A stretch of DNA of 52,329 bases from Escherichia virus TH53: the sequence record MT446419.1; one strand, given 5' to 3'. The notes beneath the pieces were generated by a model, which saw nothing but the letters and a program-made list of their open reading frames with translations, was not told the DNA's origin and ran no database searches. Shown here in pieces: positions 9,399-52,329 of the stretch (within the stretch, counting starts at the first letter, position 1; the number at the start of each line of letters is the position of its first letter). The position numbers were made by a program, and so were the translations under genes.

Positions 9399-9657
9399 AG
9401 AACTAGCTGACCATCTTGAGGCAGCAAAACAAGAGCTTGCAACTCACTCAGAACGTGTTGAAACACTGAAAGGGCAAGGTTCAACAGCCGAAGAAATCCA
9501 GCTATTTACAGATAATATCTGGTTTTCAATGAATCGTGCACAGTTTATTCAGATTCAGGAAGACCGCCTTGCTGAATTGGAAAAGCGTGTTAAAACACTT
9601 GAGAACTTGCTCGTAACATTGCAAGAAACTTTGGACCAGGAGCTGAAAAATGTCTAA
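9388..9657 (+). CDS. hypothetical coiled-coil protein (GTG start)
   Basis: Charged heptad-rich ORF. Confidence 0.4.
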   Translation: MKVEELADHLEAAKQELATHSERVETLKGQGSTAEEIQLFTDNIWFSMNRAQFIQIQEDRLAELEKRVKTLENLLVTLQETLDQELKNV

Positions 9658-10048
9658 TGTTAAGCTGGGCCAACGTTCTCTTGACCGATTAAAGGGCGTA
9701 AACCCTTCATTGGTGGCAGTTTTCAAGCGTGCATGTGAAACAATGCCGTTTGACGTGACTGTTCTTGAAGGATTGCGCACTTATGAGCGTCAACAAGAGC
9801 TTTTAAAGCAGGGTGCAACCAAAGTTTCAGTTAGCCGACACATGTCAGGCAATGCTTTAGACATTGCACCATACCCAATTGACTGGAATGACCTCGAACG
9901 ATTCCAAATTGTAGCTGAACATATGTTCAAAGCCGCAGAAGAGCTTGGAATTGTCATTCGTTGGGGCGGAACATGGGAGCGTTCATTCACTAAGCCAGTG
10001 AAATGGGCTAAATTCCTAGACGCACCACACTTCGAACTTCCAGCATAA
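9650..10048 (+). CDS. peptidase M15 family (VanY / L-alanyl-D-glutamate peptidase-like) muralytic enzyme
   Basis: Seen: SRHMSGNALD (SxHxxGxAxD zinc-binding signature) and DAPHFEL (second His). No signal peptide. Confidence 0.75.
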   Translation: MSNVKLGQRSLDRLKGVNPSLVAVFKRACETMPFDVTVLEGLRTYERQQELLKQGATKVSVSRHMSGNALDIAPYPIDWNDLERFQIVAEHMFKAAEELGIVIRWGGTWERSFTKPVKWAKFLDAPHFELPA

Positions 10049-16683: not shown

Positions 16684-17334
16684 ATGATTACTGCAACACT
16701 CGTTGACCACATGGGCAGCGACCTCACAACTGTTAATGCTGCACGAGCCTCTTATGGTGCAGAGTCCCACGAGATGACATTGCGCGACGAGAAGCTGATT
16801 GAATTTCTCGCAAAGCATAAGCACAATACACCTTTTGCCCACGCGTATGTAACACTACGTTGTACAGCACCAATCTTTATTGCGCGGCAGCTTGGCAAAC
16901 ATCAAGTTGGTTTTCGCTGGAATGAAGTTAGCCGTCGTTACAAAGATGGCGAAGCAATCGAAATTGAATGCTTTGTACCTGATGTGGTGTTTGGTCGTCC
17001 TGAAAAGTTGATGACTCAGACTGCACAACCATTGCCACAGGATTTTGCTGACGATATTCACTATCGCATGGAAATCCACAACAAGGCTTGCATTGCAGAG
17101 TATGAAACACTAATTGGTTTGGGGATTGCTCCAGAACAAGCTCGAATGGTGTTGCCACAATCTATGATGACTACATGGATTTGGACTGGTTCTCTGCTGG
17201 GCTGGGCCAATATGTACAAGCAACGCTCTACAGAGCACGCCCAATATGAGGCACGTTTGTTTGCAGAAGAAGTTAATAAAATTATGTCAGAGTTGTTTCC
17301 TGTTTGCTGGGAGGCACTCATTAAACAGGAATAA
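16684..17334 (+). CDS. ThyX-like protein (flavin-dependent thymidylate synthase family) with divergent signature
   Basis: Seen: KHQVGFRWNEVSRRY where ThyX has RHR-x7/8-S-xRY; ThyX-like N-terminal VNAARASYG and C-terminal TTWIWTGSL...HAQYEARLFAEEV. Confidence 0.6.
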   Translation: MITATLVDHMGSDLTTVNAARASYGAESHEMTLRDEKLIEFLAKHKHNTPFAHAYVTLRCTAPIFIARQLGKHQVGFRWNEVSRRYKDGEAIEIECFVPDVVFGRPEKLMTQTAQPLPQDFADDIHYRMEIHNKACIAEYETLIGLGIAPEQARMVLPQSMMTTWIWTGSLLGWANMYKQRSTEHAQYEARLFAEEVNKIMSELFPVCWEALIKQE

Positions 17335-25243: not shown

Positions 25244-25789
25244 ATGTCTTGTATGACCCAAGTTGTTGCAGTTAAACGAGTGCATCCTAATGCGAAATTA
25301 CCTGTGTACGCTACTGCTGGCGCTGCTGCTGCTGACGTTTGCACTATCTCCGATAGCACTGTTGTTATCAATCCCGGCTGCTCTGCTGTTTTCGATACTG
25401 GCCTCCAATTCGAGATTCCAGTTGGATACGAACTCAAAGTACATAGCCGTTCTGGTCATGGCTTTAAGTCTGGCATTCGCCTGGCAAACTGCACAGGAAT
25501 TCTGGACTCCGATTATCGTGGCAATCTTATGGTTAAGTTGCACAACGACTCGGACACAGCCTTTGTGGTTCAGCCAGGTGAACGTATTTGTCAGGTGCAA
25601 GTTAGTAAAGCTACTCAACACCATTTCGTTGAAGTATCTGAACTAGGCCAGACTGCTCGTGGTGAAGGTGGGTTTGGTTCTACTGGTCGTACAGAGATTC
25701 CGACTGTAGGTGCGTATGACCATTCCTTGGTTGTTGTAAATAATGATGCACTTGGAAGCCACCACCACGTTGTACCGTCTAGTAAGTAA
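25244..25789 (+). CDS. dut: dUTP pyrophosphatase (dUTPase)
   Basis: Seen: all five trimeric dUTPase motifs (ATAGAAAADV, SRSGHG, GILDSDYRG, GERICQ, RGEGGFGSTGR). Confidence 0.9.
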   Translation: MSCMTQVVAVKRVHPNAKLPVYATAGAAAADVCTISDSTVVINPGCSAVFDTGLQFEIPVGYELKVHSRSGHGFKSGIRLANCTGILDSDYRGNLMVKLHNDSDTAFVVQPGERICQVQVSKATQHHFVEVSELGQTARGEGGFGSTGRTEIPTVGAYDHSLVVVNNDALGSHHHVVPSSK

Positions 25790-49081: not shown

Positions 49082-50131
49082 ATGGCTAAAGGTTACTCTT
49101 TAGATGCGCTGGTTAACGAGCACTACATGAAGTCTCGTACCAACCTGGATAATACAAACTTAGGCACTCTCACAGGAATGGGCAGTGTTGGGGTATATTA
49201 CCAATCAGCCAACGCCTATGCTACCCTCGCAAATGACTACCCTGGTGGCGCTCAGGCGGGAACTCTTGAGGTTCTTCCAACAAATGCCAGCACTGTAGGC
49301 CGTGTTACACAACGGTACACGAACTGGCAAAACCAACGCATGTGGGTGCGGGGACAAAGCAGGAATACGCCTGCTGAATTGGGTTTTGGTCCGTGGGTAG
49401 AGCTTATAAATGCAAACAACATTTATAATGCAATCTATCCGATTGGTATTGTATTGCAGTTTGACAACGCCACCAACCCAAACAATGCCTTCACCGGAAC
49501 TGTGTGGGAGCAAATCACTGATGGTCGTGCTGCTCGTGCTGCGACTGGCCCCACTGCGGGAACTTCTGATGGTCAGATTGGTTCAGTAGCTGGCAGTGAC
49601 TCTGTATCTATCACTGTAGACAATTTACCAAGGCACACACATGACCTGCGTGAGCATACCCACTCCATTGGTGCCCATACCCACACGATGGCCCACACTC
49701 ACACCATCAACCACGACCACGGGGCAGTGAACACCAGCACCGCTGGTTGGCACGACCACTCGCTGAGTGGCACAGCTAACGCTGCTGGTGAACACTCTCA
49801 CCCAATATCTCAGGGTGATAACGCCAACGTACCGAATGGTAGGGTTGCTTCCTCAAACTCTCGTGAGACGCACGTAGGTTGGACAAACGGTGCTGGCAAC
49901 CATACTCACAGCATTAGCGGTACAGCCAATGGTACTGGCAACCACACACACACAGTGGACTTGCCTAACTTCACAGGTACAAGTGGTGGCTCTAGTGCTG
50001 CAAACACTGGTGGGACATCCTTGACTACAGGTGAACCAAGCAACAACACCTCTAATGTTACGGGCGGTGACAAAAACCTCGATGTAAGAAACTCTTCACA
50101 CTACTATGCCTTCTGGAAACGGGTGGCTTAA
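49082..50131 (+). CDS. tail fibre / receptor-binding protein with His-rich HxH repeats
   Basis: Seen: HTHDLREHTHSIGAHTHTMAHTHTINHDHG, GEHSHP, GNHTHSISG, GNHTHTV. Confidence 0.6.
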   Translation: MAKGYSLDALVNEHYMKSRTNLDNTNLGTLTGMGSVGVYYQSANAYATLANDYPGGAQAGTLEVLPTNASTVGRVTQRYTNWQNQRMWVRGQSRNTPAELGFGPWVELINANNIYNAIYPIGIVLQFDNATNPNNAFTGTVWEQITDGRAARAATGPTAGTSDGQIGSVAGSDSVSITVDNLPRHTHDLREHTHSIGAHTHTMAHTHTINHDHGAVNTSTAGWHDHSLSGTANAAGEHSHPISQGDNANVPNGRVASSNSRETHVGWTNGAGNHTHSISGTANGTGNHTHTVDLPNFTGTSGGSSAANTGGTSLTTGEPSNNTSNVTGGDKNLDVRNSSHYYAFWKRVA

Positions 50132-50138
50132 GGAACTC

Positions 50139-50480
50139 ATGGAACGTTTATCTATTCAAATGTTTGTGGACCTCATGCACCAATATGGTGTTTGGCATGG
50201 GCTGCTGGCTGGTCTGACAGCTTTAATCCGTGGGGCATACGAAAGTGAAGGTTTAAGCAAAGCGTTGCTGGATGCAGCGCTATGCAGCTTGATTGGCTTG
50301 TTTGCCTTTCATGTTGCTGGCACGTTTGAAACTTTCACCACTAACGTCACAATGCAGTTAGTTCTGGCTATCGTGATTGGTGTCATTGGTGCAAACCTCA
50401 TTATCACAACTGTCAGGGAAAGTTTCTCTGGCGCAATCAAACAACTTAACCCTTTGACGTGGTTCAAGAAGGCACGATGA
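50139..50480 (+). CDS. holin (putative)
   Basis: Three predicted TM segments; directly upstream of the endolysin. ATG 50139 chosen over track start 50106. Confidence 0.5.
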   Translation: MERLSIQMFVDLMHQYGVWHGLLAGLTALIRGAYESEGLSKALLDAALCSLIGLFAFHVAGTFETFTTNVTMQLVLAIVIGVIGANLIITTVRESFSGAIKQLNPLTWFKKAR

Positions 50481-50497
50481 AATGATAAGGAACTCGA

Positions 50498-51052
50498 ATG
50501 CTATCATTCAAAGTCCTTGCACTTCTAACAGCTTTAGTTCACATCAACGCCCCAGCTTCGGTTGGGGCAGTGAATTCTGCTATTACAGATTTTGCAAGTC
50601 ATTCTTATTTAAATGGAAGTCTGAAACTATCTTCTTCACAACGCAAAGAGCTAGAATGCTACGCTAAAGTTATCTGGTATGAAGCTCGCGGAGAAGACAA
50701 ACATGGAAAGATTCTGGTAGCTAATGTCGTCCGCAATAGAACAGAGTTCGGGAAGCCATTCGCTAACACCGTTTGTGATGTTGTCTATCAACGCAATCAA
50801 TTTGCATGGACACGAGAAGCAAAGAAGAAGAATGCTCAATGGAAGCATGTAGCAAAGATTAATTATGCCACAGAACAACAACAAGTTCTGGACACCATTA
50901 ATGTTGCAATCTCTTTTGTATTATTTAATCAACCCTCTGTCACCAAAGCAACCCACTTTTGTACAGCATCGGAGAAGTGCAACTTCAAGAATGTAAAAGG
51001 TTTGGGACGTTATGGTGGCCATAAATTCTATGAGTATCTAGGAAATCTGTAA
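50498..51052 (+). CDS. SleB/CwlJ-family cell wall hydrolase with N-terminal signal sequence (endolysin)
   Basis: Seen: [29 protein letters not shown]...[15 protein letters not shown]; hydrophobic N-terminus [20 protein letters not shown]. Confidence 0.75.
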
Positions 51053-52152
51053 TGGCTTACACTACCTTTTCACAAACCAAGAATAACCAACTACTAGAGC
51101 CAATGTTCTTTGGTCAGAACGTTAACGTTGCTCGATATGACCAACAGAAGTACAGCATCTTCGAGAAGTTAATCGAGAAGCAGTTGTCTTTCTTTTGGCG
51201 ACCTGAGGAGGTTGATGTTAGCCAGGACCGAATTGACTATGCTGGCCTTCCTGAGTGTGAGAAACACATTTTCACCAGCAATTTAAGATACCAAATCCTG
51301 CTTGATTCCATTCAGGGACGCGGACCAACTACAGTTTTGCTGCCAATTGTGAGCATTCCTGAGCTGGAAACTTGGATTGAAACTTGGTCATTCTCAGAAA
51401 CAATTCACTCTCGTTCTTACACGCATATTATTCGTAATATCGTGACAGACCCAAGTGTTATTTTCGATGAAATTGTGGAGAATGAGCATATTAAAATGCG
51501 TGCAATTGGCATCTCCCAATATTATGACGAGTTGCAGCACCTAACTTCCATGTGGCATCTGCATGAAGATAAAGTTTCTCTTCGTGAGCTTAAGAAGAAG
51601 CTATATTTATGCCTCATGTCTATCAATGCGCTGGAAGCAATCCGCTTTTATGTCAGCTTTGCTTGCTCATTTGCCTTCGCTGAACGCAAGTTAATGGAAG
51701 GAAATGCCAAGATTATTCGCTTAATTGCTCGCGATGAAGCACTCCATTTGACCGGAACTCAGCACATGCTGAACCTCCTTGCAAGTGGTATTGATGACCC
51801 AGAAATGGCTGAAATTGCTAAAGAATGCCGCCAAGAATGCCAAGAAATGTTCGAAAATGTGGCCCAACAAGAGAAAGATTGGGCTGATTATTTGTTCAAA
51901 GATGGCTCAATGATTGGCTTAAACAAGCAAATTCTGTGCGGATATGTGGAATATATCACGAATATCCGTATGCAAGCAGTTGGATTGGATGCTCCATTCA
52001 AAGGTGCTACTAACCCGATTCCTTGGATTAACGCATGGTTGAATTCGGATGCTGTACAGGTTGCTCCACAGGAAACAGAGATTAGTTCGTACCTTGTCGG
52101 GCAGATTGATTCCGAAGTGGACACCAATGCTTTGGGCGGATTTGAGCTTTAA
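51052..52152 (+). CDS. nrdB: ribonucleotide reductase class Ia beta subunit
   Basis: Seen: N-terminus [22 protein letters not shown] matches E. coli NrdB as I recall it; radical/iron site [29 protein letters not shown]. Confidence 0.92.
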
Positions 52153-52241
52153 CGATTATATGTGAGAAGAGATTCGATGCGTTAGCGTCGTTTCTCTTTG
52201 AGCTAGAATAAAACAAGTAAATTAAATATTTATTTATTCCC

Positions 52242-52258: not shown

Positions 52259-52329
52259 AAGAGTAATATTAGGAATGCGTAAAGTTAAAACCAAATGGTA
52301 CATGGTCGGTCAGCTGTATCTCGCCGAAA

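What the first reader, a model, noticed from the sequence alone, without database searches (positions are those of the whole stretch)
51052..52152. Stand-alone nrdB with no nrdA anywhere in the window
The protein has a host-like N-terminus and complete radical and di-iron site residues, but its C-terminal NrdA-docking tail differs from the recalled E. coli tail ([12 protein letters not shown] versus EVDTDDLSNFQL) and an internal segment appears shortened. No alpha subunit is encoded in 52 kb, so the product would have to pair with host NrdA or act as a regulator or inhibitor of host RNR.
Basis: partly seen in the sequence, partly recalled or inferred. Interest (0 to 1): 0.55.

Follow-up and report, generated by a model that had tools for sequence, protein, structure and literature searches.

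The report
Phage RNR small subunit without partner
This E. coli phage carries an intact, strongly conserved copy of only the small, radical-generating half of ribonucleotide reductase, which most likely teams up with the host's large half to make DNA precursors; this quirk of the phage group was already on record but has never been tested.

Summary
ORF 51052..52152 (+) encodes a 366-aa class Ia RNR beta subunit (NrdB). It is about 80% identical to E. coli NrdB. All di-iron, tyrosyl-radical and radical-transfer residues are intact. One 10-residue deletion removes R2's only beta-hairpin, and five of the last eight tail residues differ from E. coli.

The window holds no RNR alpha subunit of any class. 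The window is a complete Carltongylesvirus (phiEcoM-GJ1/ST32-like, Chaseviridae) genome, so no nrdA lies "just outside". The gene is not host contamination: DNA identity to E. coli nrdB is about 70%, its codon usage matches the phage, and it sits in the same place in about 45 phage records.

Sister genera lack it, so it was inserted after the endolysin gene in the genus ancestor. Since then it has been under strong purifying selection (dN/dS 0.02-0.08). Residues that contact E. coli NrdA in cryo-EM structures are preferentially conserved: 54 of 58 are kept.

The best reading is an active beta2 that forms a hybrid holoenzyme with host NrdA, as orphan poxvirus R2 does with cellular R1. An inhibitor role is unlikely.

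The orphan status of phiEcoM-GJ1 nrdB was tabulated in 2013. The finding is therefore real and mechanistically untested, but not new.

The parts
51052..52152 (+). nrdB CDS, 366 aa: class Ia ribonucleotide reductase beta (R2) subunit, the last gene of the genome
   Evidence: ORF; PF00268 4.6e-49; NF006576 700 bits vs cutoff 346; about 80% identical to E. coli NrdB with all cofactor and PCET residues kept; best PDB matches are E. coli R2 chains
51040..51054 (+). Shine-Dalgarno AGGA (51040-51043) and the ATG start. The endolysin stop TAA (50-52) overlaps the nrdB ATG (52-54) by one base, which suggests translational coupling to the lysis cassette
   Evidence: Sequence read directly; the same SD (AGGAAATctgtaATG) is listed for ST32 ORF79 in PMC6266442
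51565..51576 (+). Site of the in-frame 30-nt (10-codon) deletion relative to cellular nrdB. It removes R2's only beta-hairpin (E. coli mature residues 173-182)
   Evidence: Alignments. The AF2 model of the full-length E. coli-type protein has strands 174-178/181-185 with local pLDDT about 91; the phage model has none there. Clade members show -4, -7 and -10 residue versions
52048..52149 (+). C-terminal 34-residue beta-tail (equivalent to E. coli D342-L375), which carries Y356 and docks into NrdA
   Evidence: 26 of 34 residues identical to E. coli. P348, E350, Y356, L370, F373 and L375 are kept; the differences are N343A, V351T, V353I, D368N, D369A, S371G, N372G and Q374E. Tail role taken from PMC11482829
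52162..52203 (+). Strong stem-loop 10 nt after the nrdB stop codon; probable terminator or 3' stabiliser of the late operon
   Evidence: MFE -22.5 kcal/mol, z = -4.0, 0 of 200 shuffles as stable; terminator-like hit; sister phages without nrdB have comparable hairpins directly after the endolysin gene
50106..51052 (+). Holin (50106-50480) and endolysin (50498-51052) immediately upstream: the late lysis cassette onto which nrdB is appended
   Evidence: PF05106 and PF07486 hits; the same order appears in all relatives
16684..17334 (+). ThyX flavin-dependent thymidylate synthase (context: one of the phage's other dNTP-pathway genes)
   Evidence: PF02511 1.4e-41
25244..25789 (+). dUTPase (context: one of the phage's other dNTP-pathway genes)
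   Evidence: PF00692 1.3e-22

Best explanation
The gene encodes a catalytically competent class Ia RNR beta subunit. An ancestor of the genus Carltongylesvirus captured it long ago from a gamma-proteobacterial (probably enterobacterial) nrdB, and it has been kept without a cognate alpha. It is expressed as the last cistron of the late holin-endolysin transcription unit. It assembles its own di-iron tyrosyl-radical cofactor, presumably using host iron delivery and the host ferredoxin YfaE. Its conserved C-terminal tail and body surface dock onto the host's NrdA (alpha2). The resulting hybrid phage-beta2/host-alpha2 holoenzyme would raise or sustain ribonucleotide reduction during phage DNA synthesis, after host gene expression has been shut off. 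It would feed the phage's own ThyX, dUTPase and DNA polymerase. Shown here: gene identity, intactness, absence of any alpha, lineage-wide conservation, purifying selection, and conservation of alpha-contact residues. Inferred: late co-expression, hybrid complex formation, activity, and benefit to the phage.
For: Identity: PF00268, the class Ia beta equivalog at twice its cutoff, and about 80% identity to E. coli R2 with every di-iron ligand, Y122, W48, E52, R236, D237, E350 and Y356 kept. Selection: dN/dS is 0.02-0.08 across the clade, with dS up to 0.87, and the ORF is intact in all about 45 phage records at 90% identity or more. Interface: of 58 positions that contact alpha, carry the PCET pathway or bind the cofactor in E. 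coli cryo-EM structures (Tables S9-S11 of PMC11482829), only 4 differ, against an 18% background (Fisher one-sided p=0.009). Of 237 positions that are at least 97% conserved in 114 cellular NrdBs, 226 are kept. No alpha subunit exists in the window or in fully annotated relatives. Other dNTP-supply genes are present: ThyX and dUTPase. Experimental precedent: most chordopoxviruses encode only R2, and that R2 forms functional hybrid complexes with cellular R1 (PMC2900304).
Against: No experiment exists for any member of this phage group. Dwivedi et al. state that the function of incomplete RNR gene sets in phages is unknown. Four alpha-contact residues are changed in every clade member or most of them (R57Q, N131T, N343A, D368N/D). 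Two of these (N131, N343) and the neighbouring Q306 are invariant in 114 cellular sequences, so affinity for host alpha could be altered. Placement at the very end of the late lysis operon is unusual for a DNA-precursor enzyme. It is not known that beta is limiting in infected E. coli.
Confidence: 0.7

Rival explanations
1. Inhibitor or regulator: the phage protein binds host NrdA through its tail, or heterodimerises with host NrdB, in order to shut down or re-tune host RNR rather than to catalyse.
For: The tail and most alpha-contact residues are conserved, so binding is plausible. A few contact residues that never vary in cellular NrdBs are changed (N131T, N343A; Q306G lies next to contact residue Y307). 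The gene sits in the late operon.
Against: A decoy needs only the tail, yet all di-iron ligands, Y122 and the whole PCET path are kept under dN/dS 0.02-0.08. The phage encodes its own DNA polymerase, ThyX and dUTPase and needs dNTPs. In vaccinia, an R2 that binds R1 but is catalytically dead is dominant-negative for the virus itself.
Confidence: 0.08
2. Neutral passenger or decaying remnant: a leftover from an nrdAB capture in which nrdA was lost, and which has no current function.
For: It lies at a genome end, a typical place for acquired 'moron' genes. Sister genera do well without it. The hairpin has been progressively deleted. The other nrdB-only phage listed in 2013 (Campylobacter CPt10) is a case of nrdA decay.
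Against: dN/dS is 0.02-0.08 while synonymous sites approach saturation (dS 0.75-0.87). There are no frameshifts or stop codons in about 45 records, and all three hairpin deletions are in frame. Codon usage is fully ameliorated to the phage. No nrdA fragment remains anywhere.
Confidence: 0.05
3. Alpha-independent or modified role: for example, a beta that forms a holoenzyme with altered allosteric behaviour (weaker dATP-inhibited alpha4beta4 ring, or different affinity), or that replaces host beta when the host radical is quenched by stress or by an anti-phage response.
For: Lineage-specific substitutions occur at otherwise invariant positions near the alpha and cone-domain contact surface (R292K, D302Q, Q306G around I297/N300; N131T; N343A). 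The beta-hairpin is lost.
Against: I297, the key beta residue of the alpha4beta4 interface (PMC11447812), and its flanking DGSMIGLNK motif are unchanged. None of the contact lists I read includes the hairpin. There is no direct evidence for any such effect.
Confidence: 0.12

Closest known systems
gp75 / ORF79 'ribonucleotide reductase beta subunit' of phages phiEcoM-GJ1 and ST32 (genus Carltongylesvirus, Chaseviridae)
   Same: Orthologous gene: 91-99% aa identity, in the same position as the last ORF after holin-endolysin, in a genome with a T7-like RNAP as the first gene and no nrdA. phiEcoM-GJ1 is listed as 'nrdB' only in Dwivedi et al. 2013, Table S1.
   Different: The window's version belongs to the ST32 subgroup (366 aa, 10-residue hairpin deletion), whereas GJ1 has 372 aa (4-residue deletion). 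Overall the window is a distinct isolate, about 95% nt identical to EcoM1 and ST32.
E. coli NrdB (class Ia R2; PDB 1RIB, 6W4X)
   Same: About 80% identity, the same cofactor and PCET residues, the same beta-tail core and 54 of 58 alpha-contact/PCET/cofactor positions. It passes the NCBIfam equivalog model.
   Different: It lacks the beta-hairpin. Five of the last eight tail residues differ. Eleven positions invariant in cellular NrdBs are replaced. It is not in an nrdAB-yfaE operon; instead it is appended to a phage lysis cassette.
Orphan R2 of chordopoxviruses (vaccinia F4 and homologues), which work with cellular R1
   Same: The same strategy: the virus encodes only the small radical subunit. 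In poxviruses this subunit needs its C-terminal residues to bind host R1 and supplies dNTPs for viral replication (PMC2900304).
   Different: Those are eukaryotic viruses with eukaryotic-type R2 and independent acquisitions. The hybrid complex is demonstrated there and only inferred here.
Phage nrdAB pairs (T4; Privateer; jumbo phages such as Survivor and Special G)
   Same: Class Ia beta proteins, 50-77% identical to the window protein.
   Different: Privateer encodes nrdA directly upstream of nrdB and T4 is listed with both genes; I did not check the jumbo phages for nrdA. The Carltongylesvirus clade has none.

Membership tests
Class Ia RNR beta subunit (NrdB; NCBIfam NF006576, Pfam PF00268) | Matches the curated family models above their cutoffs | tested here: met
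   PF00268 167.7 bits (cutoff 33.6); NF006576 equivalog 700.3 bits (cutoff 346), full length
Class Ia RNR beta subunit (NrdB; NCBIfam NF006576, Pfam PF00268) | Six di-iron ligands (D84, E115, H118, E204, E238, H241) and the radical tyrosine Y122 | tested here: met
   All identical in the window and in 8 other clade members
Class Ia RNR beta subunit (NrdB; NCBIfam NF006576, Pfam PF00268) | Radical-transfer (PCET) residues W48, E52, R236, D237, E350 and Y356 | tested here: met
   All identical
Class Ia RNR beta subunit (NrdB; NCBIfam NF006576, Pfam PF00268) | C-terminal tail able to dock into the alpha subunit | tested here: inconclusive
   Residues 342-367 are nearly identical to E. coli and L370, F373 and L375 are kept, but D368N, D369A, S371G, N372G and Q374E differ. 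The same positions vary among cellular homologues. Binding itself cannot be tested here.
Class Ia RNR beta subunit (NrdB; NCBIfam NF006576, Pfam PF00268) | Generates a tyrosyl radical and supports nucleotide reduction with an alpha2 partner | not testable with these tools
   Requires EPR and enzyme assays
Complete class Ia RNR system (nrdA + nrdB) | A cognate catalytic alpha subunit encoded in the same genome | tested here: not met
   tblastn with E. coli NrdA gives a best E of 0.6; no large-subunit, ATP-cone or NrdD Pfam family among 117 ORFs; none in the fully annotated relative flopper
Viral orphan R2 that uses host R1 (poxvirus F4-type strategy) | The virus encodes R2 but not R1, and the R2 has intact catalytic residues | tested here: met
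Viral orphan R2 that uses host R1 (poxvirus F4-type strategy) | Physical and functional hybrid complex with the host large subunit; needed for efficient replication | not testable with these tools
   Supported only indirectly by conservation of alpha-contact residues (54 of 58, p=0.009) and by purifying selection
Genus Carltongylesvirus (Chaseviridae, Cleopatravirinae) | Collinear genome of about 52 kb with high nucleotide identity to type members: T7-like RNAP first and nrdB last | tested here: met
   92-97% nt identity over the lysis-nrdB region and about 95% over the first 25 kb to ST32, EcoM1, flopper and Mangalitsa; taxonomy lines

The most novel reading that the evidence does not exclude
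The phage beta subunit is not just an extra copy but a takeover subunit. Its lineage-specific changes sit at otherwise invariant alpha-facing positions (N131T, N343A, Q306G, R57Q, and R292K/D302Q near the cone-domain contact), and it has lost the beta-hairpin. Together these could let it out-compete host NrdB for host NrdA and yield a hybrid enzyme with altered control, such as weakened dATP feedback or resistance to radical quenching. That would drive dNTP overproduction late in infection. It would be the first demonstrated phage counterpart of the poxvirus R2-only strategy.
Probability: 0.12. Interest if true: 0.6.

Novelty: already known. Interest (0 to 1): 0.3.

Why it matters
Phages nearly always carry RNR as complete sets. 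An orphan radical subunit that has been kept under strong selection implies that one half of an essential, tightly regulated host enzyme can be swapped by a virus. In 2013 this clade was the only genuine nrdB-only case among 128 RNR-carrying phage genomes (the other case was a decayed nrdA). The system is easy to work with, because E. coli K-12 is a host for flopper and E. coli RNR is the best-characterised RNR. Showing a functional phage-beta/host-alpha hybrid would extend the poxvirus principle to bacteria. It would also offer a natural variant (hairpin-less, with altered contact residues) for probing alpha-beta recognition. As a genome-scan finding, however, it is an already annotated and already tabulated feature of a known phage genus.

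Tried and rejected
1. Hairpin deletion as an escape from dATP inhibition. The alpha4beta4 contact residue named in the literature is beta I297, which is conserved along with its flanking motif. The hairpins discussed in those papers belong to alpha. No support found.
2. AlphaFold2 models of the phage protein and of an E. coli-type NrdB. Overall confidence was low (mean pLDDT 58.7 and 62.5, from shallow 20-sequence alignments), so I used only the locally confident hairpin region and ran no fold searches.
3. Tail-versus-body identity as a test of host-alpha constraint. It does not discriminate: Privateer, which has its own alpha, has a tail 82% identical to E. coli, against 76% for the orphan.
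4. Sigma-70 promoter scan around nrdB: 5 hits against 5.2 expected, so no signal.
5. Candidate phage-promoter motif GAGACTNGAATT: only two copies, a chance-level count.
6. Searching for a specific donor. All Enterobacterales are about equally distant (77-82%), with E. coli marginally closest. In an NJ tree the clade pairs with a jumbo-phage NrdB, but on long branches, so the donor is unresolved.
7. Literature searches for functional work on this gene or on phage-beta/host-alpha hybrids found nothing.
8. Host-DNA chimera and 'nrdA just outside the window' are both excluded.

Full report
THE OBSERVATION
The ORF at 51052..52152 (+) is real and encodes 366 aa. It matches Pfam Ribonuc_red_sm (4.6e-49). 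It also matches the NCBIfam equivalog for class Ia RNR beta, NF006576, over its full length at 700 bits against a cutoff of 346. Its best matches among solved structures are E. coli R2 chains.

I aligned it with E. coli K-12 NrdB taken from a RefSeq chromosome. It shares 300 identical residues (about 80%) and has a single 10-residue gap. W48, D84, E115, H118, Y122, E204, D237, E238, H241 and Y356 are all kept.

IS ANY ALPHA SUBUNIT PRESENT, AND IS THE WINDOW COMPLETE?
tblastn of E. coli NrdA and YfaE against the window gives only chance hits (best E = 0.6). A Pfam scan of 117 ORFs from both strands found ThyX, dUTPase, RNA and DNA polymerases, and structural and lysis proteins. It found no RNR large-subunit, ATP-cone or NrdD family.

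The window is a Carltongylesvirus (Chaseviridae, Cleopatravirinae). It is 92-97% nt identical to ST32, flopper, Bp7, Ecp_YSF and Mangalitsa over the lysis-nrdB region, and about 95% identical to EcoM1 and ST32 over the first 25 kb. The fully annotated relative flopper has no nrdA.

The window's last 177 nt plus its first 332 nt are collinear with the nrdB-to-RNAP spacer of the circular Ecp_YSF record. The only difference is about 121 bp missing at the cut. In records permuted differently (MLP1, PYps23T), nrdB is likewise followed by spacer and then the RNAP gene. So the window is the whole genome, and no room exists for a 2.3-kb nrdA outside it.

IS IT HOST CONTAMINATION OR A RECENT CAPTURE?
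No. DNA identity to nrdB of all 5,426 E. coli genomes is only 66-71%. GC3 is 0.44, like other phage genes (0.415) and unlike E. coli nrdB (0.63). At the protein level the phage clade is 77-82% identical to every Enterobacterales NrdB, whereas those are 86-95% identical to one another; E. coli is marginally the closest. This is an old acquisition on a long branch, and the donor cannot be resolved.

WHEN WAS IT ACQUIRED?
All about 45 GJ1/ST32-like records (hosts Escherichia, Shigella and Yersinia pseudotuberculosis) carry it at 90% aa identity or more, in the same position. Sister lineages were checked at the syntenic site: Faunusvirus, Loessnervirus (Fifi44), Suwonvirus (PM1), Myducvirus and the unclassified Aeromonas phage phiA050. 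They have holin, endolysin, about 0.7 kb of spacer and then RNAP, with no NrdB there. I did not scan their entire genomes.

nrdB therefore looks like an insertion in the Carltongylesvirus ancestor, between the endolysin gene and a conserved stem-loop that ends the late operon. In the window this stem-loop is at 52162-52203 (dG -22.5 kcal/mol, z -4.0). Sister phages have similar hairpins directly after the endolysin gene. The nrdB ATG overlaps the endolysin TAA by one base and is preceded by AGGA. This implies late co-expression, which is an inference.

IS IT MAINTAINED?
Nei-Gojobori dN/dS is 0.02-0.08 across the clade, while dS reaches 0.75-0.87. There are no disruptions in any record. The hairpin region has three in-frame states: 372 aa (-4 residues; GJ1, PYps, MLP1), 369 aa (-7; FXie-2024a) and 366 aa (-10; the ST32 group including the window).

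AF2 models have low overall confidence but are locally confident in this region. The full-length E. coli-type protein P0005 shows strands at 174-178 and 181-185, and the phage protein shows none. The deletion therefore removes R2's single beta-hairpin.

CAN IT DOCK ON HOST NrdA?
From the 2.6-A cryo-EM study of the active E. coli alpha2beta2 complex (PMC11482829, Tables S9-S11) I compiled 58 beta positions that contact alpha directly or through water, or that belong to the PCET path or cofactor site. Only 4 differ in the window (R57Q, N131T, N343A, D368N), against an 18% background (Fisher one-sided p = 0.009).

The alpha4beta4 (dATP-inhibited ring) contact I297 (PMC11447812) and its motif DGSMIGLNK are unchanged. 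The tail's variable positions (368, 369, 371, 372, 374) are exactly those that vary among cellular homologues, for example EVNTEDLSGFEL, QVDTDDLSNFEL and EVDTNAFGSFEL. L/F370, F373 and L375 are constant.

Of 237 positions that are at least 97% conserved in 114 cellular sequences, 11 are replaced in every clade member: H68C/N, K78R, T81I, V93T, A94V, N131T, D139E, I161Q, V200I, Q306G and N343A. Two of these are alpha contacts. That leaves room for tuned affinity, but I can say nothing firmer.

MECHANISM
The best-supported reading (confidence about 0.7) is an active phage beta2 that pairs with host alpha2 and sustains dNTP synthesis for the phage's own polymerase, alongside ThyX and dUTPase. An inhibitor or decoy would not need the intact cofactor and PCET sites under such strong constraint. 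A decaying remnant is contradicted by dN/dS, by codon amelioration and by the absence of any nrdA fragment. A modified-regulation role is not excluded.

WHAT IS ALREADY KNOWN
The ST32 paper notes that the last ORF of ST32 and phiEcoM-GJ1 encodes an RNR beta subunit (PMC6266442). Dwivedi et al. 2013 state that "two phages only contain nrdB", and their Table S1 lists phiEcoM-GJ1 (YP_001595470.1) and Campylobacter CPt10, the latter a case of nrdA decay (PMC3653736). They add that it is unknown whether incomplete RNR sets are functional.

The next-closest phage NrdB that I checked (Privateer, 74%) sits beside its own nrdA. The functional analogue is the orphan R2 of most chordopoxviruses, which forms functional hybrid complexes with cellular R1 (PMC2900304). 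I found no experimental work on the phage gene.

VERDICT
The novelty rating is 'already known', because this is an annotated and tabulated feature of a known genus. Interest is modest (0.3), because the function remains untested and the system is easy to test.

Noticed in passing
whole window (1-52329): The window length of 52,329 bp equals the record length of phage Mangalitsa (MN045229). Yet the lysis-nrdB region is only 93.6% identical and nrdB is offset by 272 nt. The nearest relatives are EcoM1 and ST32 at about 95%. This is apparently a coincidence.
   Followed up: partly
related record PP952070 (hits H19, H122): 'Staphylococcus phage Pel53' (host S. hyicus) is a GJ1-like Chaseviridae genome. 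Its NrdB is 90.9% identical to the window's, and the lysis-nrdB region is 89.5% nt identical. The Gram-positive host label looks doubtful.
   Followed up: no
window 51565-51576; loci L005-L009: The R2 beta-hairpin is trimmed in frame in three steps within the genus: 372 aa, 369 aa and 366 aa. This suggests progressive loss of a dispensable surface element.
   Followed up: yes
window 52300-52329 and 1-60; L001 21930-22050: At the point where the window is cut, Ecp_YSF has about 121 extra bp containing a second copy of GGTCGGTCA(G/A)CTGTA(T/C)CT. The window's left end has GAGACT(A/C)GAATT twice (22-33, 48-59) and an imperfect 23-nt direct repeat (103-125, 149-171). These are probably elements of the genome terminus, terminal repeat or promoters.
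   Followed up: partly
window 52162-52203: A very stable stem-loop with a GUUA loop follows nrdB directly. Sister phages that lack nrdB have similar hairpins right after the endolysin gene, which marks the insertion point of nrdB.
   Followed up: partly
window 9650-10048: A second peptidoglycan hydrolase (Peptidase_M15_4, 5.7e-09) lies in the early or middle region, in addition to the late endolysin at 50498-51052.
   Followed up: no
whole window: ARAGORN finds no tRNA in the window, although the close relative Ecp_YSF has an annotated tRNA-Arg.
   Followed up: no
window 16684-17334 and 25244-25789: ThyX-type (flavin-dependent) thymidylate synthase and dUTPase are the only other dNTP-metabolism genes. 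Together with NrdB they form a dTTP-oriented precursor module.
   Followed up: partly
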